Source: a virus. From it: a stretch of 64,000 bases of DNA. The notes under the pieces are model-generated. The model saw only the letters and a program-made list of their open reading frames with translations, was not told the origin of the DNA and searched no databases. The DNA lies in IMG/VR virus record IMGVR_UViG_3300012665_001507. The stretch is one strand, 5' to 3'. Both the position numbers and the translations under genes were made by a program. Shown piece after piece: positions 1 to 8,258 of the stretch (positions are counted from its first letter, which is position 1; each line of letters starts with the position of its first letter).

Positions 1-309
1 ATAACTGAAGTGGTAAAAAGACTTATGGTAAATGCTCACGCTAAAAAATCAGTGAAACAAATCATAGTCGTTTATAACAAACTGATAATCTATAATGAGG
101 AACAGTTTGATATGGTACTATGTAAGAACTTAGAAGACGCACAAAGATTACACCACACACTAGCCAAGATTGCAAAGAAACAAAAGATTAAAAGTCTTAT
201 GTTTATGGGTACCGCATCTCCAGCAACCATAAGTAGAATGTATGATATGATACACGAAGAAACTGGTTGGCCTTATATTAAAATAAGAAGGACCAGTACA
301 CGTCCGTAG
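1..309 (+). CDS. Hypothetical protein, probably 5'-truncated by the window edge
   Basis: The frame is open from base 1 (ATA ACT GAA GTG...) to TAG at 307-309; convergent with the minus-strand block. Confidence 0.6.
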   Translation: MTEVVKRLMVNAHAKKSVKQIIVVYNKLIIYNEEQFDMVLCKNLEDAQRLHHTLAKIAKKQKIKSLMFMGTASPATISRMYDMIHEETGWPYIKIRRTSTRP

Positions 310-324
310 TACCAGTCCTTATTT

Positions 325-516
325 TTATTTGAAAAGTCCTTCTAGTTTCCCAACCAAAACAGCAATCCTTGCATTGTTTCGATTAATAACCTCTTGAAGG
401 TGTTGTGGAATATTAGTTACATATTCTGATTTAATTTTAGAGTTCTCTCTCTGTAGCATATCGCTTTCTCTAACACATTCGTCATAGATAATAGCTTTTT
501 GGTTATTGTCCATCAT
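325..516 (-). CDS. Small hypothetical protein (coiled-coil-like)
   Basis: 63 aa ORF overlapping the end of the upstream minus-strand gene. Confidence 0.6.
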   Translation of the reverse strand: MMDNNQKAIIYDECVRESDMLQRENSKIKSEYVTNIPQHLQEVINRNNARIAVLVGKLEGLFK

Positions 517-880
517 TTAAAAAATTTTCTATTTTTATTAAACCATCAAACCCAGATTGATTTTTGCTGGATAAAACAATTTCATTATTGTTTAGGTTTT
601 CATCAAATACTATTTTGTAATGTGCTAGATATTTGTTTTTGCCTTTTGTTCTATAAAATAACATGTGTTGAAGCATTGAATCGTGAACTAGCGGATGAGC
701 CGTAATTGTGTCAAATTCAATAACTGTTTCTTGAAACGCTGTAGCTATTTTATTTCTCAACATATTGACCATAGTCAATAATGTAGAATTCCAATCAAAT
801 TGTGCGGTATATGAGTCTAATGTTGGCCATGATTCTTTCCAACCTAGATAATCCCATGTCAATGCAATTTTTGTATTCAT
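503..880 (-). CDS. Hypothetical protein
   Basis: 125 aa ORF; TAATG coupling with the upstream gene at 880. Confidence 0.65.
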   Translation of the reverse strand: MNTKIALTWDYLGWKESWPTLDSYTAQFDWNSTLLTMVNMLRNKIATAFQETVIEFDTITAHPLVHDSMLQHMLFYRTKGKNKYLAHYKIVFDENLNNNEIVLSSKNQSGFDGLIKIENFLNDGQ

Positions 881-1233
881 TAGTCACAGTTGCATTTACC
901 ATCTGGGTTTTCACCGCAATCACATGGTTTTACTTCTTCACCTATCTCGATATCTTCATCTGCGACATCGATGTCTAGTCCTACTGCAAAACTTTCTTTG
1001 ATTTCTTCAACCATCTTATTGATTTTTTCCATGTCAGCTTCTGCTACGACAAGTGGATTGATGCACTCAATTCTTTCCTCACCTTTGGTTGGTAAGAAGA
1101 ATGCTAAAGCGTTAGCGTTTTTATGAGCTAACAAATTGTTTACCGATTCAGCGAATGGCTGAATAATTTCTGGCATTTTCATCATATCTGCATCCAAGTA
1201 GAATACGATGATTAGTGGATAACTTTCTTTCAT
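880..1233 (-). CDS. Hypothetical protein with a C-terminal Cys cluster (CDCG...CNC)
   Basis: 117 aa ORF with an A-rich leader, an acidic linker and a 4-Cys tail. Confidence 0.7.
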   Translation of the reverse strand: MKESYPLIIVFYLDADMMKMPEIIQPFAESVNNLLAHKNANALAFFLPTKGEERIECINPLVVAEADMEKINKMVEEIKESFAVGLDIDVADEDIEIGEEVKPCDCGENPDGKCNCD

Positions 1234-1238
1234 TTGTT

Positions 1239-1478
1239 TTATTTATTATATGTTGTTATTTCTTCAATGATTTCATTTAATACGGAGTTGTTCAATGGTG
1301 TAGCTATTTCTAAAAGAAGCATATTTACTCTTTCTTTTTTAGCTTGATTACCAATTTCATTAAAACATTGGGTATTGATTCCATCAACTGTTACATATAT
1401 TAAATACTCACTAATGTAGTTTTTTCCCCTTTTTCGACTATAAAATCGGTCAATTTCTTTTACTATGATTTTTTGCAT
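1239..1478 (-). CDS. Hypothetical protein (start re-called to MQKII at 1478)
   Basis: The track start at 1547 lies inside the terminator hairpin; ATG at 1478 follows a promoter-like motif at 1493-1523. Confidence 0.6.
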   Translation of the reverse strand: MQKIIVKEIDRFYSRKRGKNYISEYLIYVTVDGINTQCFNEIGNQAKKERVNMLLLEIATPLNNSVLNEIIEEITTYNK

Positions 1479-1533
1479 TGTTTGAATTTTCACAACAATA
1501 CCCAAAAATTTTAAACATGTAAAGTCTATAAAC

Positions 1534-1560
1534 AAAAAAAACCTCATAAAGAGGTTTTTT
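1534..1560 (-). terminator. Intrinsic terminator after the DUF2828 gene and RNA candidate
   Basis: AAAAAAAACCTC-ATAAA-GAGGTTTTTT hairpin with a U-tract on the minus strand (also U6 on plus). Confidence 0.8.
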
Positions 1561-1758
1561 ATACTAATTCACAAGATGCGGGGGCATTTACTTCAAACCC
1601 TGTTAGAAGGTTTGCACATTAAAAAAAAATTGTTAGAGGTCGTGCACACCTACGTTGTCTATGTAGCTAATTGAATTTTTGTAGTTTGCTTGCTGCATAC
1701 ACCTTTTAGCCGAATTAGTATTAGATAAGTTGCGGGGCAGTTTCCCACCCCACCCTTA
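1561..1758 (-). ncRNA. Candidate structured ncRNA (Y-RNA-like partner of the adjacent Ro60/TROVE-related protein)
   Basis: Perfect 10-bp end-to-end stem (1561-1570 with 1712-1721), inner helix AAGGUGU/GCAUCUU, hairpin at 1594-1614 and GAAA-tetraloop hairpin at 1732-1753; several G-U pairs work only on the minus strand; no ORF; ends at a terminator. Confidence 0.55.
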
Positions 1759-3210
1759 TTAAACCGTTACTACAGAGTAACGTTCAGAGTCGATAACTGA
1801 CATCATCATTGAGATTGGTGTCATGTCTTTACCACCTAACAAGTTAGTAAGTAAAGCTGGGCTGAACCCAGATACCAAAGCAGTACCATTCGTATCGAAG
1901 TGAACTGGTTTGTTGTTATCGCCCCTAGATTGGATGTTCCAATATACGATGTTAGGCATTTTGTACCCAGCATCTTCGTACATTGTACGAATCATCTCTT
2001 GAGCAGTTGGATTCCAAGCACTAGTGCTACGGTAACCGTTAGTTGCCGAATTGAATTCCATATCTGACAAGATAAGAATCATCGTTGGCATCTCATCCTC
2101 AGAAACATTCGAAGCTTTTGCTTTTGACAACACAAGCTTGAATACTGCCTCTAAGTTTGTAGACATCGCCCAATCAGCTCTCGCTAATTGATTGTATCTC
2201 TCGTTCAACGAACCCTTAAGGATTTGAAGAGTTGGAGATTCAGAGAACGTTACGAAAGCGTCTTGGAATGGACCAACGTTTCTTTCAGAGATGTATAACC
2301 CCAAAGAGATTGCTACATCCATACAAGTTACGTTAGCGTTTCCACCCGCAGCGGTTTCCATTGACCCCGAAACGTCAACAACTGGAAGTACTCTTTCCGC
2401 ACTACCTTCCATAAAGTTAGGTAAAGCATCCCATTGTACATTAGCACCTTTGGTATTACCTTGTTTAAGGTTTTTCACGATGTCGTATGGGTACACCGCA
2501 CCAGCGTTAATTTTAGCTTCCCCTTTCTCAACCGAAGTTAAGTAAGATTGGAAACGTTCCAAGTCATTCTTTGAGAACGCTTTCATCAAGTCACTCATTG
2601 CTTTTGAAGGCAATTTAGAGTACTCAATTTTAGACCACTCTTTAGCACACATCAATTGCTCAACGGTGTTAGAGTTTTCAGCTAACAATTTACGGTACTC
2701 TTTTGGAGTTAACCCTAAATGTTTTCTCAAAGCAGTTGCCCATCTTTTCTTTTCACGGTTTTCTACGTTTGGACGTGGCATCCATTTAGCACAAAGACCA
2801 TCTTTGTTATTCAAAGCTGTAGCGATTAACGCCAAAGCATCAGACTCCAAAGCTGTCCCAACAAGCACTAACAAGTCATCCCAACGACCAAACTCATTAA
2901 TCAAGTGCAAGTTTTTACGTAACGTTTCCGTTCTGTTTTCAGCTAAGTATTCGATGATATCACGGAAAACTTTACGTTCCCCAGCACCACCTCTTACGTC
3001 ACGTGCCCAGAATAAAAGACGCATCGCAGTCAACGTATCTTCACTAAATGCTTTGGTGAAAACGTTGATTAAACGTTGTTTGTCTTGACCTCTCATAGCC
3101 CCAATCTGGAAGAATAAATCAACACAGTGGTTCAATGAAGAAGAATTAGTAGACATTCCGTTTTCAGTTAACGAATTTTTTGTTTGCATAGCATTTAATA
3201 ATGTACTCAT
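1759..3210 (-). CDS. DUF2828-family protein: Ro60/TROVE-related helical domain plus C-terminal vWA domain
   Basis: Motifs TENG, RDVRGGAGER, GRWDDL, AKWMPR, vWA MIDAS DVSGSM, SDMEF, YWN and LVSGFSP. Confidence 0.85.
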   Translation of the reverse strand: MSTLLNAMQTKNSLTENGMSTNSSSLNHCVDLFFQIGAMRGQDKQRLINVFTKAFSEDTLTAMRLLFWARDVRGGAGERKVFRDIIEYLAENRTETLRKNLHLINEFGRWDDLLVLVGTALESDALALIATALNNKDGLCAKWMPRPNVENREKKRWATALRKHLGLTPKEYRKLLAENSNTVEQLMCAKEWSKIEYSKLPSKAMSDLMKAFSKNDLERFQSYLTSVEKGEAKINAGAVYPYDIVKNLKQGNTKGANVQWDALPNFMEGSAERVLPVVDVSGSMETAAGGNANVTCMDVAISLGLYISERNVGPFQDAFVTFSESPTLQILKGSLNERYNQLARADWAMSTNLEAVFKLVLSKAKASNVSEDEMPTMILILSDMEFNSATNGYRSTSAWNPTAQEMIRTMYEDAGYKMPNIVYWNIQSRGDNNKPVHFDTNGTALVSGFSPALLTNLLGGKDMTPISMMMSVIDSERYSVVTV

Positions 3211-3251
3211 GATTAATGATTTTAGAATTTTAGTTATTTATTTAAGTGGTA

Positions 3252-3282
3252 CAAAGGTACGAACTTAATTCTCGTTTTGCAA
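3252..3282 (-). promoter_or_regulatory. Bacteroidetes-type housekeeping (early) promoter for DUF2828
   Basis: TTGC-N19-TACCTTTG on the minus strand. Confidence 0.8.
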
Positions 3283-3312
3283 GTTTTTTTTAAACTTTTT
3301 TTAAAATATTTT

Positions 3313-3837
3313 TTAAATCTTTGTCAACCAAGCAATTACAGTGTTTGTCGTGTTTTGAATATTGTGAAACTCAGCTTGAGATATCGCAGCATCTGAAACA
3401 AAATAAAAACCAACCTGTGCACTATAATGACTACCACCAAATGGTTGGAAGTAATACAAAGAAAGTGTTTTGTTTGTTGAAGCAACACCAGCTGTTAATT
3501 GATACGGTCTGACCGCCCCATTGTTTAATGTGTAGTTGTTATTTGACACAAAACGAATAGTATCGTTAGGGTATGATGTAGAAAAAGCGGTAACCACTTT
3601 TGTCAGAACCCATGTTGTACCAACCAATTCGTTGCTAGTAGGTGTTGTACCCCAGTTAGGTAATGTACCACCATTTCCGTATTGGTCTTGCCAATTTGTT
3701 GTATCAGTAACTGGTGGTGTCCCAGGACCGTAATTACCAGGTGTTATCTCATCTTTACTACAACTAGTAATTAACATTGCTAATAACACAAATAGTATGG
3801 CAACAATAGCCCATCTTTTAAAATTAGAATTTTCCAT
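3313..3837 (-). CDS. Predicted lipoprotein with a lipocalin-like beta domain
   Basis: Basic/hydrophobic signal, lipobox LITS-C then CSKDE; LVGTTWVLTK motif typical of lipocalin-like Bacteroidetes lipoproteins. Confidence 0.7.
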   Translation of the reverse strand: MENSNFKRWAIVAILFVLLAMLITSCSKDEITPGNYGPGTPPVTDTTNWQDQYGNGGTLPNWGTTPTSNELVGTTWVLTKVVTAFSTSYPNDTIRFVSNNNYTLNNGAVRPYQLTAGVASTNKTLSLYYFQPFGGSHYSAQVGFYFVSDAAISQAEFHNIQNTTNTVIAWLTKI

Positions 3838-3855
3838 TTTTATTAATTTAGATTA

Positions 3856-3886
3856 CAAAGGTAGTAAATGTTTTTGTAACTACCAA
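3856..3886 (-). promoter_or_regulatory. Bacteroidetes-type promoter
   Basis: TTGG-N19-TACCTTTG. Confidence 0.75.
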
Positions 3887-3887
3887 A

Positions 3888-4502
3888 TTATTTTACAAAA
3901 TTTCTAATATATTTTGTTCTATGGTATCTATTGGCCCCGATTTCTTTAAGTGCAGCAATATGGTCTGGTGTCAAATAACCTTTGTTGCCTTCCCAATTAT
4001 ACTTCGGAAATTTTTCACCCAACTTGGTCATATACTCATCACGTCTAACCTTAGCAACAATAGCAGCTGCTGCTATACATGTATACGTATCATCACCTTT
4101 AGGTACTAGCGTCATCATGTGGTCATACTTTTCTTCATCAGAGTATGTTTCCCATGCAACACCATCAACAAGGATGTGTTGTGGTTTAACATTTAATTCT
4201 GCCAAACATTTATACATTGTTTTGTATGTTGCTTTATCGATACCCATTTCATTGATATCACCGACAGACCCAGCATTGCATGAAACACTAATAGCGTTAT
4301 CCATTATTAGTTTGTACGCTTCATCTCTTTGTTTTGGTGAAAGTTTTTTTGAATCTCTGATAAGTGGTGACTTAAAACCTTTCGGCATAATAACAGCAGC
4401 CGTTACTACAGGACCAGCACCACAGCCTCGTCCAACCTCATCTAACCCAGCAACAAATTCAAAGTCACCGTAATCTTCTAATATTTTTTTCTCTTTTGCC
4501 AT
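3888..4502 (-). CDS. rnhB: Ribonuclease HII
   Basis: GLDEVGRG, GPVV, DSKKL, VDG, KGD, AAAIVAKVRRD and KGY motifs. Confidence 0.95.
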   Translation of the reverse strand: MAKEKKILEDYGDFEFVAGLDEVGRGCGAGPVVTAAVIMPKGFKSPLIRDSKKLSPKQRDEAYKLIMDNAISVSCNAGSVGDINEMGIDKATYKTMYKCLAELNVKPQHILVDGVAWETYSDEEKYDHMMTLVPKGDDTYTCIAAAAIVAKVRRDEYMTKLGEKFPKYNWEGNKGYLTPDHIAALKEIGANRYHRTKYIRNFVK

Positions 4503-4506
4503 ATCA

Positions 4507-4537
4507 CAAAGGTACTAAAAATATTTTAATTATACAA
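4507..4537 (-). promoter_or_regulatory. Bacteroidetes-type promoter, probably giving a leaderless rnhB mRNA
   Basis: TTGT-N19-TACCTTTG ending 4 nt before the ATG. Confidence 0.75.
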
Positions 4538-4757
4538 CTGCTTTGATTAGTTTAACGATAATACCACCAATTGCGATTTCAAATTCATCGTTAGGTATAA
4601 ACTCCACAGTCATTGGGTTGAACATGTGAAAGATTTCTTCGTTTAAATTGATATGGTCAGCTTCTAAAAGCTCATAAGTTAAGGTTAACCCAGTTTTATA
4701 TATTGTTTCATCATTTACTATTGATGTAACGGTTGTGATTAAGTCTTCGTATTTCAT
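4530..4757 (-). CDS. Hypothetical protein
   Basis: 75 aa ORF, TAATG-coupled to the upstream gene. Confidence 0.7.
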   Translation of the reverse strand: MKYEDLITTVTSIVNDETIYKTGLTLTYELLEADHINLNEEIFHMFNPMTVEFIPNDEFEIAIGGIIVKLIKAVV

Positions 4758-4975
4758 TAGAATTTAGTAAATATTTTTTTTAAACCTAACATGAAGCGTT
4801 CACCCCATGTTTTTTTAATTATTTTTGCTTTACCTGGATTCTTTTTAATTTCTTGACCCAAACCACTTTTTAATTCATTAATGAATTGGTTTTTCTTAAG
4901 TGCTGTTTTGTATTTTTCAACAAGCATATCTTTTTCTGCTTGAGTTGATTCTCTACTAATCATTTTTTCATTCAT
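4757..4975 (-). CDS. Small basic hypothetical protein
   Basis: 72 aa Lys-rich ORF. Confidence 0.7.
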   Translation of the reverse strand: MNEKMISRESTQAEKDMLVEKYKTALKKNQFINELKSGLGQEIKKNPGKAKIIKKTWGERFMLGLKKIFTKF

Positions 4976-5048
4976 AATAAAACTTTTTTTAAATATAGTT
5001 GTTTTTAATCAATATGTAAACACTTTTGTCTTTGTATCTATAGGTAAA

Positions 5049-5240
5049 TTATTTAATAATGTTCTTCTTGTTAGAATTTTTAACAAAATCAAGTTCGTCA
5101 GTAAATGACCAAAGTTTATCACCCTTTTTTCTTTTGTAATAAACGTCAGAACCACCAATATCTCGTAATTGATATTGATACTCTGTTGTTTTACCCTCAG
5201 ACAATAAATAAACCAACCTTTCTCTTATAAATTCTTTCAT
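5049..5240 (-). CDS. Small late protein with a CTS-like N-terminus (MKEFIRERLVYLLSE)
   Basis: ATG at 5240, 15 nt after the TATTTATA motif. Confidence 0.65.
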   Translation of the reverse strand: MKEFIRERLVYLLSEGKTTEYQYQLRDIGGSDVYYKRKKGDKLWSFTDELDFVKNSNKKNIIK

Positions 5241-5255
5241 CAACAATTATTTCTA

Positions 5256-5263
5256 TATAAATA
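5256..5263 (-). promoter_or_regulatory. Putative phage late promoter TATTTATA
   Basis: Recurrent motif mostly 13-16 nt upstream of late/structural genes, always on the coding strand. Confidence 0.65.
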
Positions 5264-5294
5264 TTGACTAATACTATTAGAATCACTATATTTG
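5264..5294 (+). promoter_or_regulatory. Bacteroidetes-type promoter, back-to-back with a late promoter
   Basis: TTGA-N19-TATATTTG. Confidence 0.75.
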
Positions 5295-5306
5295 AAACAA
5301 AAACAT

Positions 5307-5648
5307 ATGACAACACTTATTTTTATCTTAATTTGCTATGGTGCCTGTAATAATTTGATTTACGGGTCCATTTTTGAAGGCTGGCGAAATCGTCTAGCAA
5401 AATTTGGAACTGGAGGTTACAGTTTCCATAAATTATTTACATGTTTCATGTGCTTAGGCACTTGGATGGGATTTGCTGTCTCGGCAATCATGTCCTATTT
5501 CGGATATGCACATTTAACACCAATTGGTTCAATCGGTGTTGAAAACGTATATTTGATAGTTTTCTTAAACGGGTTATTAGCAACTGGAGGTGTATGGTTA
5601 ATCCATACTGTACAGGAAGCGTTTGAACGAGCTTTTACTGAAAAGTAA
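5307..5648 (+). CDS. Small multi-pass membrane protein with CxxC (DUF1360-like)
   Basis: Hydrophobic helices and a FTCFMCLGTW motif; start re-called to ATG 5307, downstream of the promoter. Confidence 0.65.
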   Translation: MTTLIFILICYGACNNLIYGSIFEGWRNRLAKFGTGGYSFHKLFTCFMCLGTWMGFAVSAIMSYFGYAHLTPIGSIGVENVYLIVFLNGLLATGGVWLIHTVQEAFERAFTEK

Positions 5649-5665
5649 TACAAACACCCACAAAA

Positions 5666-5699
5666 AATAAAAGAGCTCCTATATGGGGCTCTTTTTATT
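5666..5699. terminator. Bidirectional intrinsic terminator
   Basis: AATAAAAGAGCTCC-TATAT-GGGGCTCTTTTTATT between convergent genes. Confidence 0.8.
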
Positions 5700-6457
5700 T
5701 AAAATCCTTTTGAATCTATGCATTTATCGCACGCTTCATCTGGGCCGCAATCACAATCGGTATCGTATGATTCACTTAACACCATCTCTGGTTTCCTTTT
5801 TGGTGGTAACTCAACCTTGTTCTGCACTTTGGCTGGAACTGTAGGTTTTCGTCCATTGCGAATCGCTTTCATGTTTCGTTCAGCTCTAGCTTCTTCTTCT
5901 AGAATTTCACGTTCTTCTTCTGTAAGTTCAATTGGGTTACCATTCTCATCTAAGTATTGGGATGGATTGGTTAAATTCCCTTGTTGGCTAGGAACGGTTT
6001 CTTCGATTATTTCTTCCTCGAATGTTTCCGTTACTGGTATTGGCGATATTTCATCAATTTCCATATCAATATCAAAATCGTTTATGTTACCAACCAATTC
6101 TTCTTCAGCAAACGTAAATTTAAGTCGAGTTAATTTAGCTAAAGTATTTTTTTTAAACACTTCTTTTAATTCATTTACTTTTACACGTAAAAGTTCATGT
6201 TTTTTCTCTCGTTCTAAATTCAATTTGATTACTTTATCAACATAGGTTAATAAGTCATCTAAACCAATGTTTGGTGATTCACTGAATAACATATAGTAAT
6301 TCATAGTTTCATCACCTTTGGCCATTTTTACGTTATTATCAGCTGGAACTGACCAACCTTCTTTAAATACAGCATCAACTACTGGCGTACCCTCTACGTA
6401 TCGAATTCCAATTACGTATGGTTGAAGTGAGTCTAATGTTTTTTGTATGTTTGACAT
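5699..6457 (-). CDS. Hypothetical protein: coiled coil, acidic linker and C-terminal CDCG...CDKC
   Basis: 252 aa ORF. Confidence 0.75.
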   Translation of the reverse strand: MSNIQKTLDSLQPYVIGIRYVEGTPVVDAVFKEGWSVPADNNVKMAKGDETMNYYMLFSESPNIGLDDLLTYVDKVIKLNLEREKKHELLRVKVNELKEVFKKNTLAKLTRLKFTFAEEELVGNINDFDIDMEIDEISPIPVTETFEEEIIEETVPSQQGNLTNPSQYLDENGNPIELTEEEREILEEEARAERNMKAIRNGRKPTVPAKVQNKVELPPKRKPEMVLSESYDTDCDCGPDEACDKCIDSKGF

Positions 6458-6462
6458 AGGTT

Positions 6463-6675
6463 TTATAGTTTAATACCAGTGAAGATTACTGTTAAAATAT
6501 ACGCCACAGATATACCCAATAAAACCAATGATGTATTTCGTAATCTATATTTAGTTGGTTCCTCTTCTACCGATGGGAACAACGATTGAATAAAATAATA
6601 TGTATGTCTAATTGTGTTAAGACACGCCATAAATAAAAACATTATTAATATTTTATTAAGTATAACTGTTAGCAT
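6463..6675 (-). CDS. Small two-TM membrane protein
   Basis: 70 aa with two hydrophobic segments. Confidence 0.65.
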   Translation of the reverse strand: MLTVILNKILIMFLFMACLNTIRHTYYFIQSLFPSVEEEPTKYRLRNTSLVLLGISVAYILTVIFTGIKL

Positions 6676-6686
6676 ATTTTTAGTTA

Positions 6687-6863
6687 TTAAGCTTCTTTAT
6701 TTTTAGCAGAAACTTCTAATCTCATAGCTTGAGCTAAAGTTCTAACTTCTTGTAACGTTTTTCTAACTCTTACGCCAGCAGCTTTGTTACCTTTTTCGTA
6801 AAATTTTGTTACATCCTCTTCCATTGAAGCGATAAGTGTTTTTAAATCATTAAAATTTTCCAT
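6687..6863 (-). CDS. Histone H1-like (Hc1 family) DNA-binding protein, missed by the ORF track
   Basis: Manual translation: MENFNDLKTLIASMEEDVTKFYEKGNKAAGVRVRKTLQEVRTLAQAMRLEVSAKNKEA*; GNKAAGxRxRK is the Hc1 signature; fills the gap between its neighbours exactly. Confidence 0.85.
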   Translation of the reverse strand: MENFNDLKTLIASMEEDVTKFYEKGNKAAGVRVRKTLQEVRTLAQAMRLEVSAKNKEA

Positions 6864-6864
6864 T

Positions 6865-7098
6865 TTAGTTTTCTTTTTTGTTTTCGTTATTTTCGTTATT
6901 GTTTACTGAAACCATTGAATTGAATTTTTCAATGTTGGTTTCTATAGCGGATAATTGACCCACTAATTGTCTAATTCTGTATGATTTACTTTCGATATCA
7001 TCATCAGAAGCAATTACTCTTTCTAAGTCATCCTCGATTTTTAATTTCTCGGTTGACCAATCTAAAAGTACTACGTTAAAAAGTCTTTGTGTATTCAT
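6865..7098 (-). CDS. Small coiled-coil hypothetical protein
   Basis: 77 aa ORF directly upstream of Hc1. Confidence 0.7.
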   Translation of the reverse strand: MNTQRLFNVVLLDWSTEKLKIEDDLERVIASDDDIESKSYRIRQLVGQLSAIETNIEKFNSMVSVNNNENNENKKEN

Positions 7099-7149
7099 AA
7101 GGCAATATTACACAATTATTTCTGAAAATAAATAGTTAAACCTAAAATT

Positions 7150-7623
7150 TTATGCAAATTTCAAGGATTTTTCAAAAATAGTGTAAATTTCGATAAGGGT
7201 ATCAACGTCTGAGTTCGTTTTTGTTTTGGTGAAGTCGAATATGTCTGACCATATTCTAAGTATCCCTTTATCTGTGTAATCGAATGGTTTTTTTTCTTTA
7301 TATGAATAGAAAACCTCAAGTGTAAACTCTAAAAAGTAGTTGTACAACTTGGGGTTTTCAATATTGATACCTTCTTTGGCAAAATTATCAACGGTTTTTC
7401 CCCAACACCACTGAAAGTGGTTGAATTGAGCATCGTAGTCCGTAACCTCATCCCCTAAGTATGTGTCAAAGACACGCATTAGAAGTGATTGCACAAAATC
7501 ACTATAAAGCTCACATTTTTCGAACTTTATATTATTTGCTGCAAACAATACTGACACACTCTCTTTACTCATAGGGCTGTTGATATATGCTAAGAAACTT
7601 GTTCTATCATATTTGTTATTCAT
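7150..7623 (-). CDS. Hypothetical protein
   Basis: 157 aa ORF with an A-rich leader. Confidence 0.75.
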   Translation of the reverse strand: MNNKYDRTSFLAYINSPMSKESVSVLFAANNIKFEKCELYSDFVQSLLMRVFDTYLGDEVTDYDAQFNHFQWCWGKTVDNFAKEGINIENPKLYNYFLEFTLEVFYSYKEKKPFDYTDKGILRIWSDIFDFTKTKTNSDVDTLIEIYTIFEKSLKFA

Positions 7624-7670
7624 ATTGTTTATTTTAATTTAATATAAGTCTTAAATTAAAAAAATAAATG

Positions 7671-8258
7671 TTAAACTAAGTCAGATGACTCAATTAATGT
7701 ATAAGTAAAAGATTTACCGTGTATTGCAGCCGCTTTACGACAGATACTCATAAATTCTTCAAAGTCAGCAGATTTTTTAAACACTTGACATCCTTCTGAC
7801 CAGTTTTCAACATATGTTGAATCAGCACCAGCTTTGTGAATGTTAATACCAAAGATACCTTCTTGGATTTTAGACTCATCATAAGTCATGTCTTTGTTAG
7901 CGTCTCTATAAACTTTAACATTTTTAGCTTGTTTAAGTGCCTCATATTTTCCTTGGTGCAAACCTAAAGTGTGTGAACCTCTATATTGTCCTTCTACTAA
8001 TCTAGCAACACCAGCTGCATTATGGTATTCTTTAACACCTTTTGTTCCTGGGTCTGTTGTACATGCCCATGTTTTGAATTTCCATTCACCGTTCTCTTTG
8101 TACGATACTGTCATGTGGTCGTCAAAAACATTTGTTACTTTATTTCCAGTTGATGAGTTTCTAACACCTACGATGTTCACATCAAAATCTTTAGCTCCTT
8201 CGAACCAAGCATATCCTTTAGCTTTTACAGCTTTTTCTATTTGTTCTCTTGTATACAT
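7671..8258 (-). CDS. YkuD/L,D-transpeptidase-like peptidoglycan enzyme
   Basis: INIHKAG...NWSEGCQV resembles the His...SxGC catalytic motif; start re-called to MYTREQ at 8258, 2 nt after the GH19 stop. Confidence 0.6.
   Translation of the reverse strand: MYTREQIEKAVKAKGYAWFEGAKDFDVNIVGVRNSSTGNKVTNVFDDHMTVSYKENGEWKFKTWACTTDPGTKGVKEYHNAAGVARLVEGQYRGSHTLGLHQGKYEALKQAKNVKVYRDANKDMTYDESKIQEGIFGINIHKAGADSTYVENWSEGCQVFKKSADFEEFMSICRKAAAIHGKSFTYTLIESSDLV

What the first reader, a model, noticed from the sequence alone, without database searches (positions are those of the whole stretch)
1534..3282. Ro60-like DUF2828 gene co-transcribed with a structured RNA: candidate phage ribonucleoprotein system
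Seen: one transcription unit runs from a host-type promoter (3252-3282) through the DUF2828/vWA gene and ~200 nt of non-coding sequence to a terminator (1534-1560), in a genome whose other spacers are mostly under 100 nt. On the minus strand this sequence folds into a GAAA-tetraloop hairpin (GUGGGGUGG-GAAA-CUGCCCCGC, 1732-1753, no U-tract, so not a terminator). A ~160 nt domain follows, closed by a perfect 10-bp end-to-end stem (AUACUAAUUC/GAAUUAGUAU). Inside it are an internal loop, a second helix (AAGGUGU/GCAUCUU) next to unpaired AUGCAGCAA, hairpins including CAAACCUU-CUAAC-AGGGUUUG, and a U9 tract. G-U pairs in three helices work only on this strand. Established: bacterial Ro60 (TROVE plus vWA) binds Y RNAs, which are encoded beside the gene, pair their 5' and 3' ends in a bulged stem and act in RNA decay or repair. 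Inference: DUF2828 may have its own RNA partner, used early in infection, perhaps against host RNA-damaging defences.
Basis: partly seen in the sequence, partly recalled or inferred. Interest (0 to 1): 0.85.

Follow-up and report, generated by a model that had tools for sequence, protein, structure and literature searches.

The report
Phage Ro60-like protein's partner RNA
Just after a phage gene for a ring-shaped Ro60-like protein lies a conserved, knotted 161-base RNA; its "handle" travels with this protein gene across very different phages, so it is most likely the protein's RNA partner, in an RNA family absent from Rfam.

Summary
A conserved host-type promoter, the DUF2828/DUF7788 gene (1759-3210, minus), a hairpin, a 161-nt RNA (1561-1721) and a terminator form one unit.

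The RNA is real. 28 related phage contigs keep it, with compensatory changes in the end stem P1, in helix P2 and in two H-type pseudoknots.

P2 plus the adjacent unpaired CWGCAA is a "handle". It recurs in one to four short RNAs beside DUF2828 genes down to 33% protein identity. It also recurs inside the tRNA arrays of Felix O1, Bas63, KVP40 and PX29. T4 and T5 have neither the gene nor the handle.

The protein model aligns with Ro60 over its full length (Z 21.8). No Rfam family matches, and the Y-RNA CGAA motif is absent.

Bas63 gp130, a published counter to the Ppl defence whose RNA partner was only guessed at, belongs to this protein family. Four handle RNAs lie between its neighbouring tRNA genes.

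The handle also fits the published description of dictyostelid Class I RNAs.

RNA binding is inferred, not shown.

This scan has noted the same pairing on many other genomes. New here is the double-pseudoknot cargo form attached to the gene.

The parts
3252..3282 (-). Host-type (Bacteroidota-style) promoter: TTG at 3282-3280, TAcCTTTG at 3259-3252
   Evidence: Sequence. The same TTG-N17-21-TAnnTTTG motif lies 58-79 nt upstream of the start codon in 23 of 23 close relatives. Transcription itself was not measured.
1759..3210 (-). Gene for a 483-aa Ro60-like protein (DUF2828 helical ring + DUF7788 vWA domain with a MIDAS site)
   Evidence: ORF. Pfam DUF7788 1.4e-51 and DUF2828 7.1e-40. PHROG 850 'RNA-binding protein' 2.4e-155. 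AlphaFold2 model pLDDT 92. Ro60 matches: Foldseek E 2.6e-10 to 7.5e-6, VIA-align Z 21.8. D279, S281, S283, T351 and D383 are invariant in 73 sequences.
1732..1753 (-). Hairpin just after the stop codon (GAAA loop here); facultative
   Evidence: Most relatives have a stable hairpin at this place with other stem and loop sequences. Eleven of the 27 listed have no fold predicted there, mostly because the spacer is very short. Role unknown.
1561..1721 (-). 161-nt structured RNA: handle plus double-pseudoknot cargo, closed by P1
   Evidence: Model R1 scores 153.7 bits here. It finds 27 further copies in the loci of close relatives, each at the place the HMM and coordinate scans put just downstream of the gene (in two loci after a 1.1-1.3 kb insertion) and on its strand. 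It is the only strong match in the 64-kb window. No Rfam match at E<=1.
1712..1721 (-). P1, 5' strand (AUACUAAUUC), pairs with 1561-1570
   Evidence: P1 differs in sequence in almost every relative but stays complementary over 5-16 bp. Own-flank pairing scores 17.4 against 10.8 for swapped flanks; permutation p about 5e-5.
1561..1570 (-). P1, 3' strand (GAAUUAGUAU)
   Evidence: As for the 5' strand.
1699..1705 (-). P2, 5' strand (AAGGUGU), preceded by A1706, which faces G1572
   Evidence: 98% of cells paired, and 5 of 7 pairs changed on both sides, in 28 sequences. RNAalifold predicted this helix independently.
1573..1579 (-). P2, 3' strand (GCAUCUU), followed by the conserved G1572
1690..1698 (-). 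Unpaired handle motif AUGCAGCAA (CWGCAA core at 1695-1690)
   Evidence: C, G, C, A, A are invariant in the long copies and in 44 short copies.
1613..1651 (-). Pseudoknot 1: AGGU/ACCU (1651-1648 with 1640-1637); its loop UGCAC (1646-1642) pairs with GUGCA (1617-1613) across a U-rich linker
   Evidence: All 17 sequences of this architecture keep a 4-10 bp loop-to-downstream helix, with at least 9 different sequences. Self score 16.3 against 9.7 for swapped partners; permutation p about 5e-5.
1582..1609 (-). Pseudoknot 2: CUUC/GAAG (1609-1606 with 1594-1591) and GGGU/GCCC (1600-1597 with 1585-1582)
   Evidence: GGGU/GCCC is 99% paired, with 3 of 4 pairs changed on both sides. CUUC/GAAG shows compensatory changes, for example in L006, L012, L031 and L040 (permutation p 1.5e-4).
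1534..1560 (-). Intrinsic terminator ending the unit
   Evidence: 10-bp stem plus U-run. Every relative has a hairpin plus U-run at the same place after the RNA.

Best explanation
The 161-nt RNA at 1561-1721 (minus strand) is a stable non-coding RNA made from the 3' end of the early transcript of the Ro60-like DUF2828 gene. It most likely binds that protein, forming a phage particle of the Ro60/Y-RNA kind.

The RNA has two modules.
- The handle is helix P2, whose base is an A facing a G, then A-U and G-C pairs, followed by unpaired U-N-C-W-G-C-A-A. This handle is shared by the whole family and is the probable protein-binding site.
- The cargo is the variable insert. Here it is two tandem H-type pseudoknots. 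In other phages it is short, or a permuted tRNA-like cloverleaf.

The same phage lineage carries further handle RNAs set tightly between tRNA genes, so tRNA-processing enzymes would release them.

By analogy with Ro60/Y RNA, the RNA would gate the ring or tether it to host RNAs or nucleases early in infection. That would serve RNA quality control or counter-defence.

Shown here: conservation, covariation, genomic linkage and the protein fold. Inferred: the RNA's stability, its binding to the protein and its function.
For: Structure
- 28 copies have P2 at 98% paired and GGGU/GCCC at 99% paired. Whole-structure pairing is 91.6%, against about 50% when partners are slid.
- Permutation tests: P1 p about 5e-5, pseudoknot 1 p about 5e-5, CUUC/GAAG p 1.5e-4.

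Linkage to the gene
- A strict handle scan of 138 DUF2828 loci gave 118 hits on the gene strand, 5 on the other strand and 6.7 in shuffles.
- 74 of 130 unique loci have a copy, down to 33% protein identity.
- Starting from the RNA pattern alone gave 129 hits. 35 had the gene in the fetched locus, all on the same strand, at a median of 247 nt. 65 abutted a tRNA.
- Of 10 long contigs without the gene in the fetched piece, 6 had it elsewhere, including the only complete one.

Whole-genome searches with model R2
- All matches with E <= 0.01 in Andreotti, Felix O1, Bas63, KVP40, PX29 and D479 lie on the gene strand, next to the gene or in tRNA arrays.
- T4 and T5 have neither the gene nor a hit.

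Other evidence
- Fold: Z 21.8 to Ro60.
- Own promoter for handle RNAs in a relative, with tRNAs 0-5 nt from the elements.
Against: - A stable RNA species is therefore unproven.
- Binding is inferred from co-occurrence only.
- One 93%-identical relative (L001) has lost most of the RNA and keeps the gene, so the RNA is dispensable in at least some settings.
- Bas63 gp130 expressed alone, without phage RNAs, countered Ppl for T7.
- The strict scan found no copy in 56 of 130 loci. Some of these misses reflect its strictness or flanks of only 1.5 kb.
- The Ro-binding motif of known Y RNAs is absent.
Confidence: 0.75

Rival explanations
1. The structure is a cis-acting 3'-UTR element of the DUF2828 mRNA. 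It would stabilise the mRNA, or serve as an autoregulatory site bound by the protein, rather than being a separate small RNA.
For: It has no promoter of its own and lies between the stop codon and the terminator of the gene. In some distant loci the short copies lie upstream of the gene, like leaders.
Against: The same handle occurs in units kilobases from the gene. Those units have their own promoter and terminator and sit flush between tRNA genes. A UTR role cannot explain that. L001 keeps the gene after losing the element.
Confidence: 0.1
2. The handle RNAs act independently of the DUF2828 protein. They could be tRNA-array by-products, processing signals or decoys for host factors. They would sit near the gene only because both belong to the phage's tRNA and translation region.
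For: Half of the pattern-first hits abut a tRNA. gp130 alone is enough against Ppl. In dictyostelids a different protein, the RRM protein CIBP, binds Class I RNAs directly.
Against: T4 and T5 have tRNA arrays with other stable RNAs but no handle and no gene. This 64-kb window has no tRNA gene, yet the RNA sits directly after the gene. In 35 of 35 cases gene and RNA share a strand, at a median distance of 247 nt.
Confidence: 0.13
3. The structure is a chance fold of an unusually long spacer.
For: A single-sequence z-score of -3.2 is modest, and 2 of 200 shuffles fold as well.
Against: It is conserved in 28 contigs, with compensatory changes in five helices and strict strand bias.
Confidence: 0.01

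Closest known systems
Bacterial and phage Ro60 (Rsr) with Y RNAs YrlA/YrlB/Yrn1 (Chen et al. 2014, PMC4201824); Thermus phage phiLo Ro60 with Yrl1/Yrl2 (PMC12135203)
   Same: A ring-plus-vWA protein. Its RNAs are encoded beside it on the same strand, often several per genome. The 5' and 3' ends close a stem next to a short conserved unpaired motif. The cargo is modular and can be a permuted tRNA mimic: the Felixounavirus element L144:324-464 folds into a variable arm, T arm, 7-bp acceptor-like hairpin and D arm.
   Different: The protein belongs to a different sequence family: no Pfam TROVE match, and only E about 0.05 to Ro60 by profile. The RNA lacks the GNCGAA(N)G or CGAA motif and carries CWGCAA instead. 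No Rfam family matches. The window's cargo is two pseudoknots, not a tRNA mimic. Many copies lie inside tRNA arrays.
Bas63 (Escherichia phage JohannRWettstein) gp130, a counter to the Ppl defence (preprint 10.1101/2024.10.10.617714)
   Same: bas63_0130 is a member of this protein family (profile E 7.8e-167). The authors noted its Ro60-like fold and its position upstream of tRNA genes.
   Different: They only guessed that some annotated tRNA genes might be Y RNAs. Here four unannotated handle RNAs are placed in the gaps between those tRNA genes (82068-82910). The window's phage is unrelated, with a host-type promoter of the Bacteroidota kind, and its RNA is attached to the gene.
Class I RNAs of dictyostelid social amoebae (Kjellin et al. 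2021, PMC7919456)
   Same: As that paper describes them, they have a short covarying stem joining the 5' and 3' ends, flanked by conserved AAG and CUG(U). An 11-nt motif next to the 5' strand has near-invariant C6, C9, A10 and A11, and the rest is variable. The phage handle reads AAG-stem-..U.C.GCAA...stem-CUG.
   Different: They are eukaryotic, 42-65 nt, with their own DUSE promoter, and were reported as unique to Dictyostelia. Their known direct binder is the RRM protein CIBP. I compared only the published description; no sequence was aligned here. Whether the uncharacterised pull-down protein DDB_G0281243 is a DUF2828 protein was not tested.
Stable RNAs of unknown function in phage tRNA clusters: T4 rnaC/rnaD; T5 RNAI, RNAIII and RNA1
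   Same: Small stable RNAs encoded flush with tRNA genes and released by tRNA processing (annotations).
   Different: T4 and T5 have no DUF2828 gene and no match to handle model R2 (best E 0.37 and 0.13, outside the tRNA clusters).

Membership tests
Ro60 / TROVE proteins | Closed helical-repeat ring followed by a vWA domain | tested here: met
   The AlphaFold2 model (pLDDT 92) aligns to Xenopus Ro60 1yvr with Z 21.8, rmsd 3.9 A and 412 residues (model 8-463). vWA-only hits reach only Z about 9.7. The top 13 Foldseek hits are all Ro60/TROVE.
Ro60 / TROVE proteins | Sequence membership (Pfam TROVE PF05731) | tested here: not met
   Only DUF7788 and DUF2828 match at E<=0.01. A 73-sequence profile reaches Ro60/TROVE chains only at E 0.05-0.27, around the MIDAS motif.
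Ro60 / TROVE proteins | MIDAS motif DxSxS...T...D in the vWA domain | tested here: met
   D279, S281, S283, T351 and D383 are invariant in 73 diverse family members.
Ro60 / TROVE proteins | Binds Y RNA on the ring's outer face and misfolded RNA ends in the hole | not testable with these tools
   Needs EMSA, RIP-seq or a structure.
Y RNAs (YrlA/YrlB type) | Encoded close to the Ro60-type gene on the same strand | tested here: met
   The RNA starts 38 nt after the stop codon. 118 hits on the gene strand against 5 on the other. 35 of 35 share the gene's strand in the pattern-first test.
Y RNAs (YrlA/YrlB type) | 5' and 3' ends pair in a stem | tested here: met
   P1 and P2 covary.
Y RNAs (YrlA/YrlB type) | Ro-binding motif GNCGAAN0-1G near the 5' end (Chen 2014; CGAA in phiLo Yrl1/2) | tested here: not met
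   There is no CGAA anywhere in the 161-nt RNA. The conserved motif is CWGCAA.
Y RNAs (YrlA/YrlB type) | tRNA-like domain (T arm, acceptor-like hairpin, D arm) | tested here: not met
   The window RNA's cargo is two pseudoknots, and ARAGORN finds nothing in the window. The feature is present in another family member, the Felixounavirus element L144:324-464.
Y RNAs (YrlA/YrlB type) | Match to an Rfam covariance model | tested here: not met
   No Rfam 15 family matches the element at E<=1 in window 1-8000 (the only two matches lie elsewhere, at 842-922 and 5513-5764), or at E<=0.1 in six loci with short copies, apart from true tRNAs and three sub-threshold matches to unrelated families away from the copies listed.
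Dictyostelid Class I RNAs | Short covarying stem flanked by AAG...CUG(U), plus an 11-nt motif with C6, C9, A10, A11 next to the 5' strand | tested here: inconclusive
   The phage handle fits the published description. In the window RNA, C6, C9, A10 and A11 fit and position 3 does not. No Class I sequence could be aligned or scored with the tools at hand.
Dictyostelid Class I RNAs | Length 42-65 nt, with the stem at the very ends of the RNA | tested here: not met
   The window RNA is 161 nt, and an extra outer stem P1 encloses the handle. Many short phage copies are 50-90 nt.

The most novel reading that the evidence does not exclude
The CWGCAA handle is the specific binding site of DUF2828 proteins. 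It would define an old, widespread second branch of Ro60/Y-RNA particles, shared by hundreds of phage lineages and, through the Class I RNAs, by social amoebae.

In phages the interchangeable cargo (tRNA mimics, or the double pseudoknot here) would direct the ring to particular host RNAs or nucleases. The particle would then be a programmable counter-defence or RNA-surveillance device, expressed early and partly processed out of tRNA arrays.
Probability: 0.3. Interest if true: 0.9.

Novelty: new variant of a known kind. Interest (0 to 1): 0.8.

Why it matters
- DUF2828/DUF7788 is a very large family of unknown function, with 6738 cluster representatives at E<=1e-3. This work gives it a likely RNA partner and a concrete binding-site hypothesis.
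- One member, Bas63 gp130, already has an anti-defence phenotype in a tractable coliphage, and its partner RNA had only been guessed at. The four handle RNAs mapped between its tRNA genes make that question directly testable.
- The result shows that "spacers" in phage tRNA arrays can hide a conserved RNA family.
- It suggests a protein context for the long-unexplained dictyostelid Class I RNAs.
- The window adds the largest, pseudoknotted cargo type, joined to the gene itself.

Tried and rejected
- **Rfam:** no family matched the element itself (two matches near E 1 lie elsewhere in the window; the loci with short copies gave only true tRNAs and three sub-threshold matches to unrelated families).
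- **Sequence search of the PDB with the single protein:** nothing meaningful.
- **MAFFT alignments:** they misplace P1 and CUUC/GAAG because junction lengths vary, so pair counts on A3 and A6 understate these helices. I used anchor-based tests comparing each sequence's own flanks with swapped flanks instead.
- **First exact-pattern scan:** few hits, two of them chance coding matches.
- **Whole genome of the window:** not held. The further copies reported for this genome were therefore checked only in close relatives.
- **The look-up of sequencing runs:** closed, so there are no expression data.
- **Ideas not supported or not settled:**
  - The post-stop hairpin's GAAA loop docking into a receptor-like GUAGG/CCUCUAA was considered. 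The loop is not conserved and the hairpin is often absent.
  - A T-loop reading of GGGUUUGAAG was rejected, because the U after GGG pairs with the G of GCCC.
- **Protein Atlas:** showed only viral DUF2828 clusters, so the amoeba protein question stays open.
Full report
**What is in the window**

On the minus strand a 483-aa ORF (1759-3210) carries Pfam DUF2828 and DUF7788 and matches PHROG 850, "RNA-binding protein". A TTG-N20-TAcCTTTG promoter motif lies at 3282-3252. After the stop codon come four features:
- a hairpin at 1732-1753;
- a 161-nt domain at 1561-1721, closed by a perfect 10-bp stem;
- an inner helix AAGGUGU/GCAUCUU next to unpaired AUGCAGCAA;
- a terminator at 1560-1536.

The window has no tRNA gene. 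No Rfam family matches this region at E<=1.

**The RNA is conserved and covaries**

Protein-guided searches of IMG/VR gave 16 and then 80 related loci. A covariance model built from 13 copies found 28 full-length copies. Each lies at the place the earlier scans put just after the gene, and on its strand.
- P2 is 98% paired, with 5 of 7 pairs changed on both sides.
- GGGU/GCCC is 99% paired.
- Overall pairing is 91.6%, against about 50% when partners are slid.
- P1 has a different sequence in nearly every phage but stays complementary. Own flanks score 17.4 against 10.8 for swapped flanks, p about 5e-5.

The middle of the RNA forms two H-type pseudoknots.
- **Pseudoknot 1.** The loop of AGGN/NCCU pairs with a segment downstream of a U-rich linker. 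All 17 sequences of this architecture keep this helix, with at least nine different sequences (p about 5e-5).
- **Pseudoknot 2.** CUUC/GAAG encloses GGGU, which pairs with GCCC further on.

The promoter motif is present in 23 of 23 relatives, and a terminator follows the RNA in all of them. One 93%-identical relative (L001) has deleted most of the RNA.

**A wider family with a shared handle**

More distant DUF2828 loci carry one to four shorter elements of 50-170 nt, upstream or downstream of the gene and on its strand. They share one core: an A, a 6-8 bp stem beginning AAG or AG, two to three nucleotides, C-N-GCAA, an A-rich variable insert, the stem complement ending CU, then G (alignment A7).
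- A strict scan for this core found 118 hits on the gene strand, 5 on the other strand and 6.7 in shuffles.
- 74 of 130 unique loci have at least one copy, down to 33% protein identity.

**Tests that do not start from the gene**

A model of the short core (R2) was run over whole phage genomes. At E <= 0.01 it found:

| Phage | DUF2828 gene | R2 hits |
|---|---|---|
| Andreotti | yes | 4, in the tRNA array right after the gene |
| Felix O1 | yes | 4, right after the gene |
| Bas63 | yes | 4, in the tRNA array right after the gene |
| KVP40 | yes | 1 |
| PX29 | yes | 2, at the head of a tRNA array |
| D479 | yes | 1, exactly between two tRNAs |
| T4 | no | none (best E 0.37) |
| T5 | no | none (best E 0.13) |

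In a close relative of the window's phage, short copies sit 0-5 nt from flanking tRNAs. One unit there has its own host-type promoter and terminator.

A pure RNA-pattern scan of IMG/VR gave 129 hits.
- 35 had the gene within the fetched piece, all on the same strand, at a median of 247 nt.
- 65 directly abutted a tRNA.
- Of ten long contigs without the gene in the fetched piece, six had it elsewhere. The four without it are 17-51% complete.

**The protein**

An AlphaFold2 model from 73 sequences (pLDDT 92) matches Ro60 structures over its full length.
- Foldseek: the top 13 hits are all Ro60/TROVE.
- VIA-align: Z 21.8, 412 residues, rmsd 3.9 A to 1yvr, well above vWA-only hits at Z about 9.7.
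- The MIDAS residues are invariant.

By sequence it is a separate family, and a large one.

**Literature**

- Bacterial Y RNAs carry GNCGAA(N)G and a permuted tRNA-like domain (PMC4201824). phiLo Yrl1/2 were found by a CGAA motif (PMC12135203).
- The window RNA has no CGAA. One Felixounavirus element does fold into a permuted cloverleaf.
- The PhageMaP preprint reports that Bas63 gp130 is Ro60-like, counters Ppl and lies upstream of tRNA genes. It only speculates that some tRNA genes are Y RNAs. gp130 alone also rescued T7 on the Ppl strain.
- bas63_0130 is a member of this family.
- The description of dictyostelid Class I RNAs (AAG start, CUGU end, 6-bp covarying stem, 11-nt motif ending C..CAA) fits the handle. 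One protein pulled down with them, DDB_G0281243, is uncharacterised.
- I found no paper or Rfam entry describing the phage RNA family.

**Reading**

The best-supported explanation is a Ro60/Y-RNA-like particle with a new handle and interchangeable cargo. The window's RNA is the gene-attached, double-pseudoknot form.

Binding, RNA stability and function are inferred. Rival readings (a 3'-UTR element, or RNAs independent of the protein) fit the distribution less well.

Earlier notes of this scan report the same pairing on many other genomes. I reached the family and the tRNA-array result from my own searches. I took from the notes the lead to the other copies in this genome and the Class I comparison.

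Noticed in passing
L002:2501-4102; L011, L020:5624-8047, L103; contigs G007 and G011: The Ro60-like gene is repeatedly interrupted at the same place, about residue 135-142, just before the conserved KWMPRP. In L020 and G011 (and in G007, where the pieces also contain stop codons) it is cut into two pieces with about 0.9-1 kb between them. L002 has only a TAA stop and a restart. In L011 and L103 only the part from residue 139 was found. In L020 the insert holds an opposite-strand 267-aa ORF with a weak GIY-YIG (SegE-like) match (E 0.007, below Pfam's cut-off). This looks like a homing-endonuclease insertion hotspot that leaves a two-piece protein.
   Followed up: partly
L005:3935-5044 and L040: An insertion of 1.1-1.3 kb lies near the 3' end of the gene. 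A duplicated copy of the last roughly 40 codons sits directly in front of the RNA, so the RNA stays attached to the original gene end.
   Followed up: no
L001:3949-4000: A natural deletion between two GGGT repeats removes almost the whole RNA. The gene is kept at 93% protein identity, along with the 3' end of the RNA and the terminator.
   Followed up: no
L010:688-2124: An in-frame TAA at codon 407 of the gene replaces a conserved position before AGY. This may be a pseudogene or an assembly error.
   Followed up: no
MZ501086 82748-83022 (L277:2749-3023): The small opposite-strand CDSs bas63_0137 and bas63_0138 are annotated in the gap between tRNA-Asp and tRNA-Lys, which holds two handle RNAs. 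bas63_0137 overlaps both of these RNAs and bas63_0138 begins 2 nt after the second, so bas63_0137 at least is probably a spurious call.
   Followed up: no
window 3888-4502 (-): An RNase HII gene (Pfam 1.6e-37) lies two genes upstream of the Ro60-like gene on the same strand. The 174-aa ORF between them (3313-3837) has no Pfam or PHROG match.
   Followed up: no
L153:2340-2420 (-): In a close relative, a second promoter of the same host type (TTGACA...TAtCTTTG) drives a unit made of a long handle RNA, a short handle RNA, tRNA-Gln, tRNA-Met, another short handle RNA and a terminator.
   Followed up: partly
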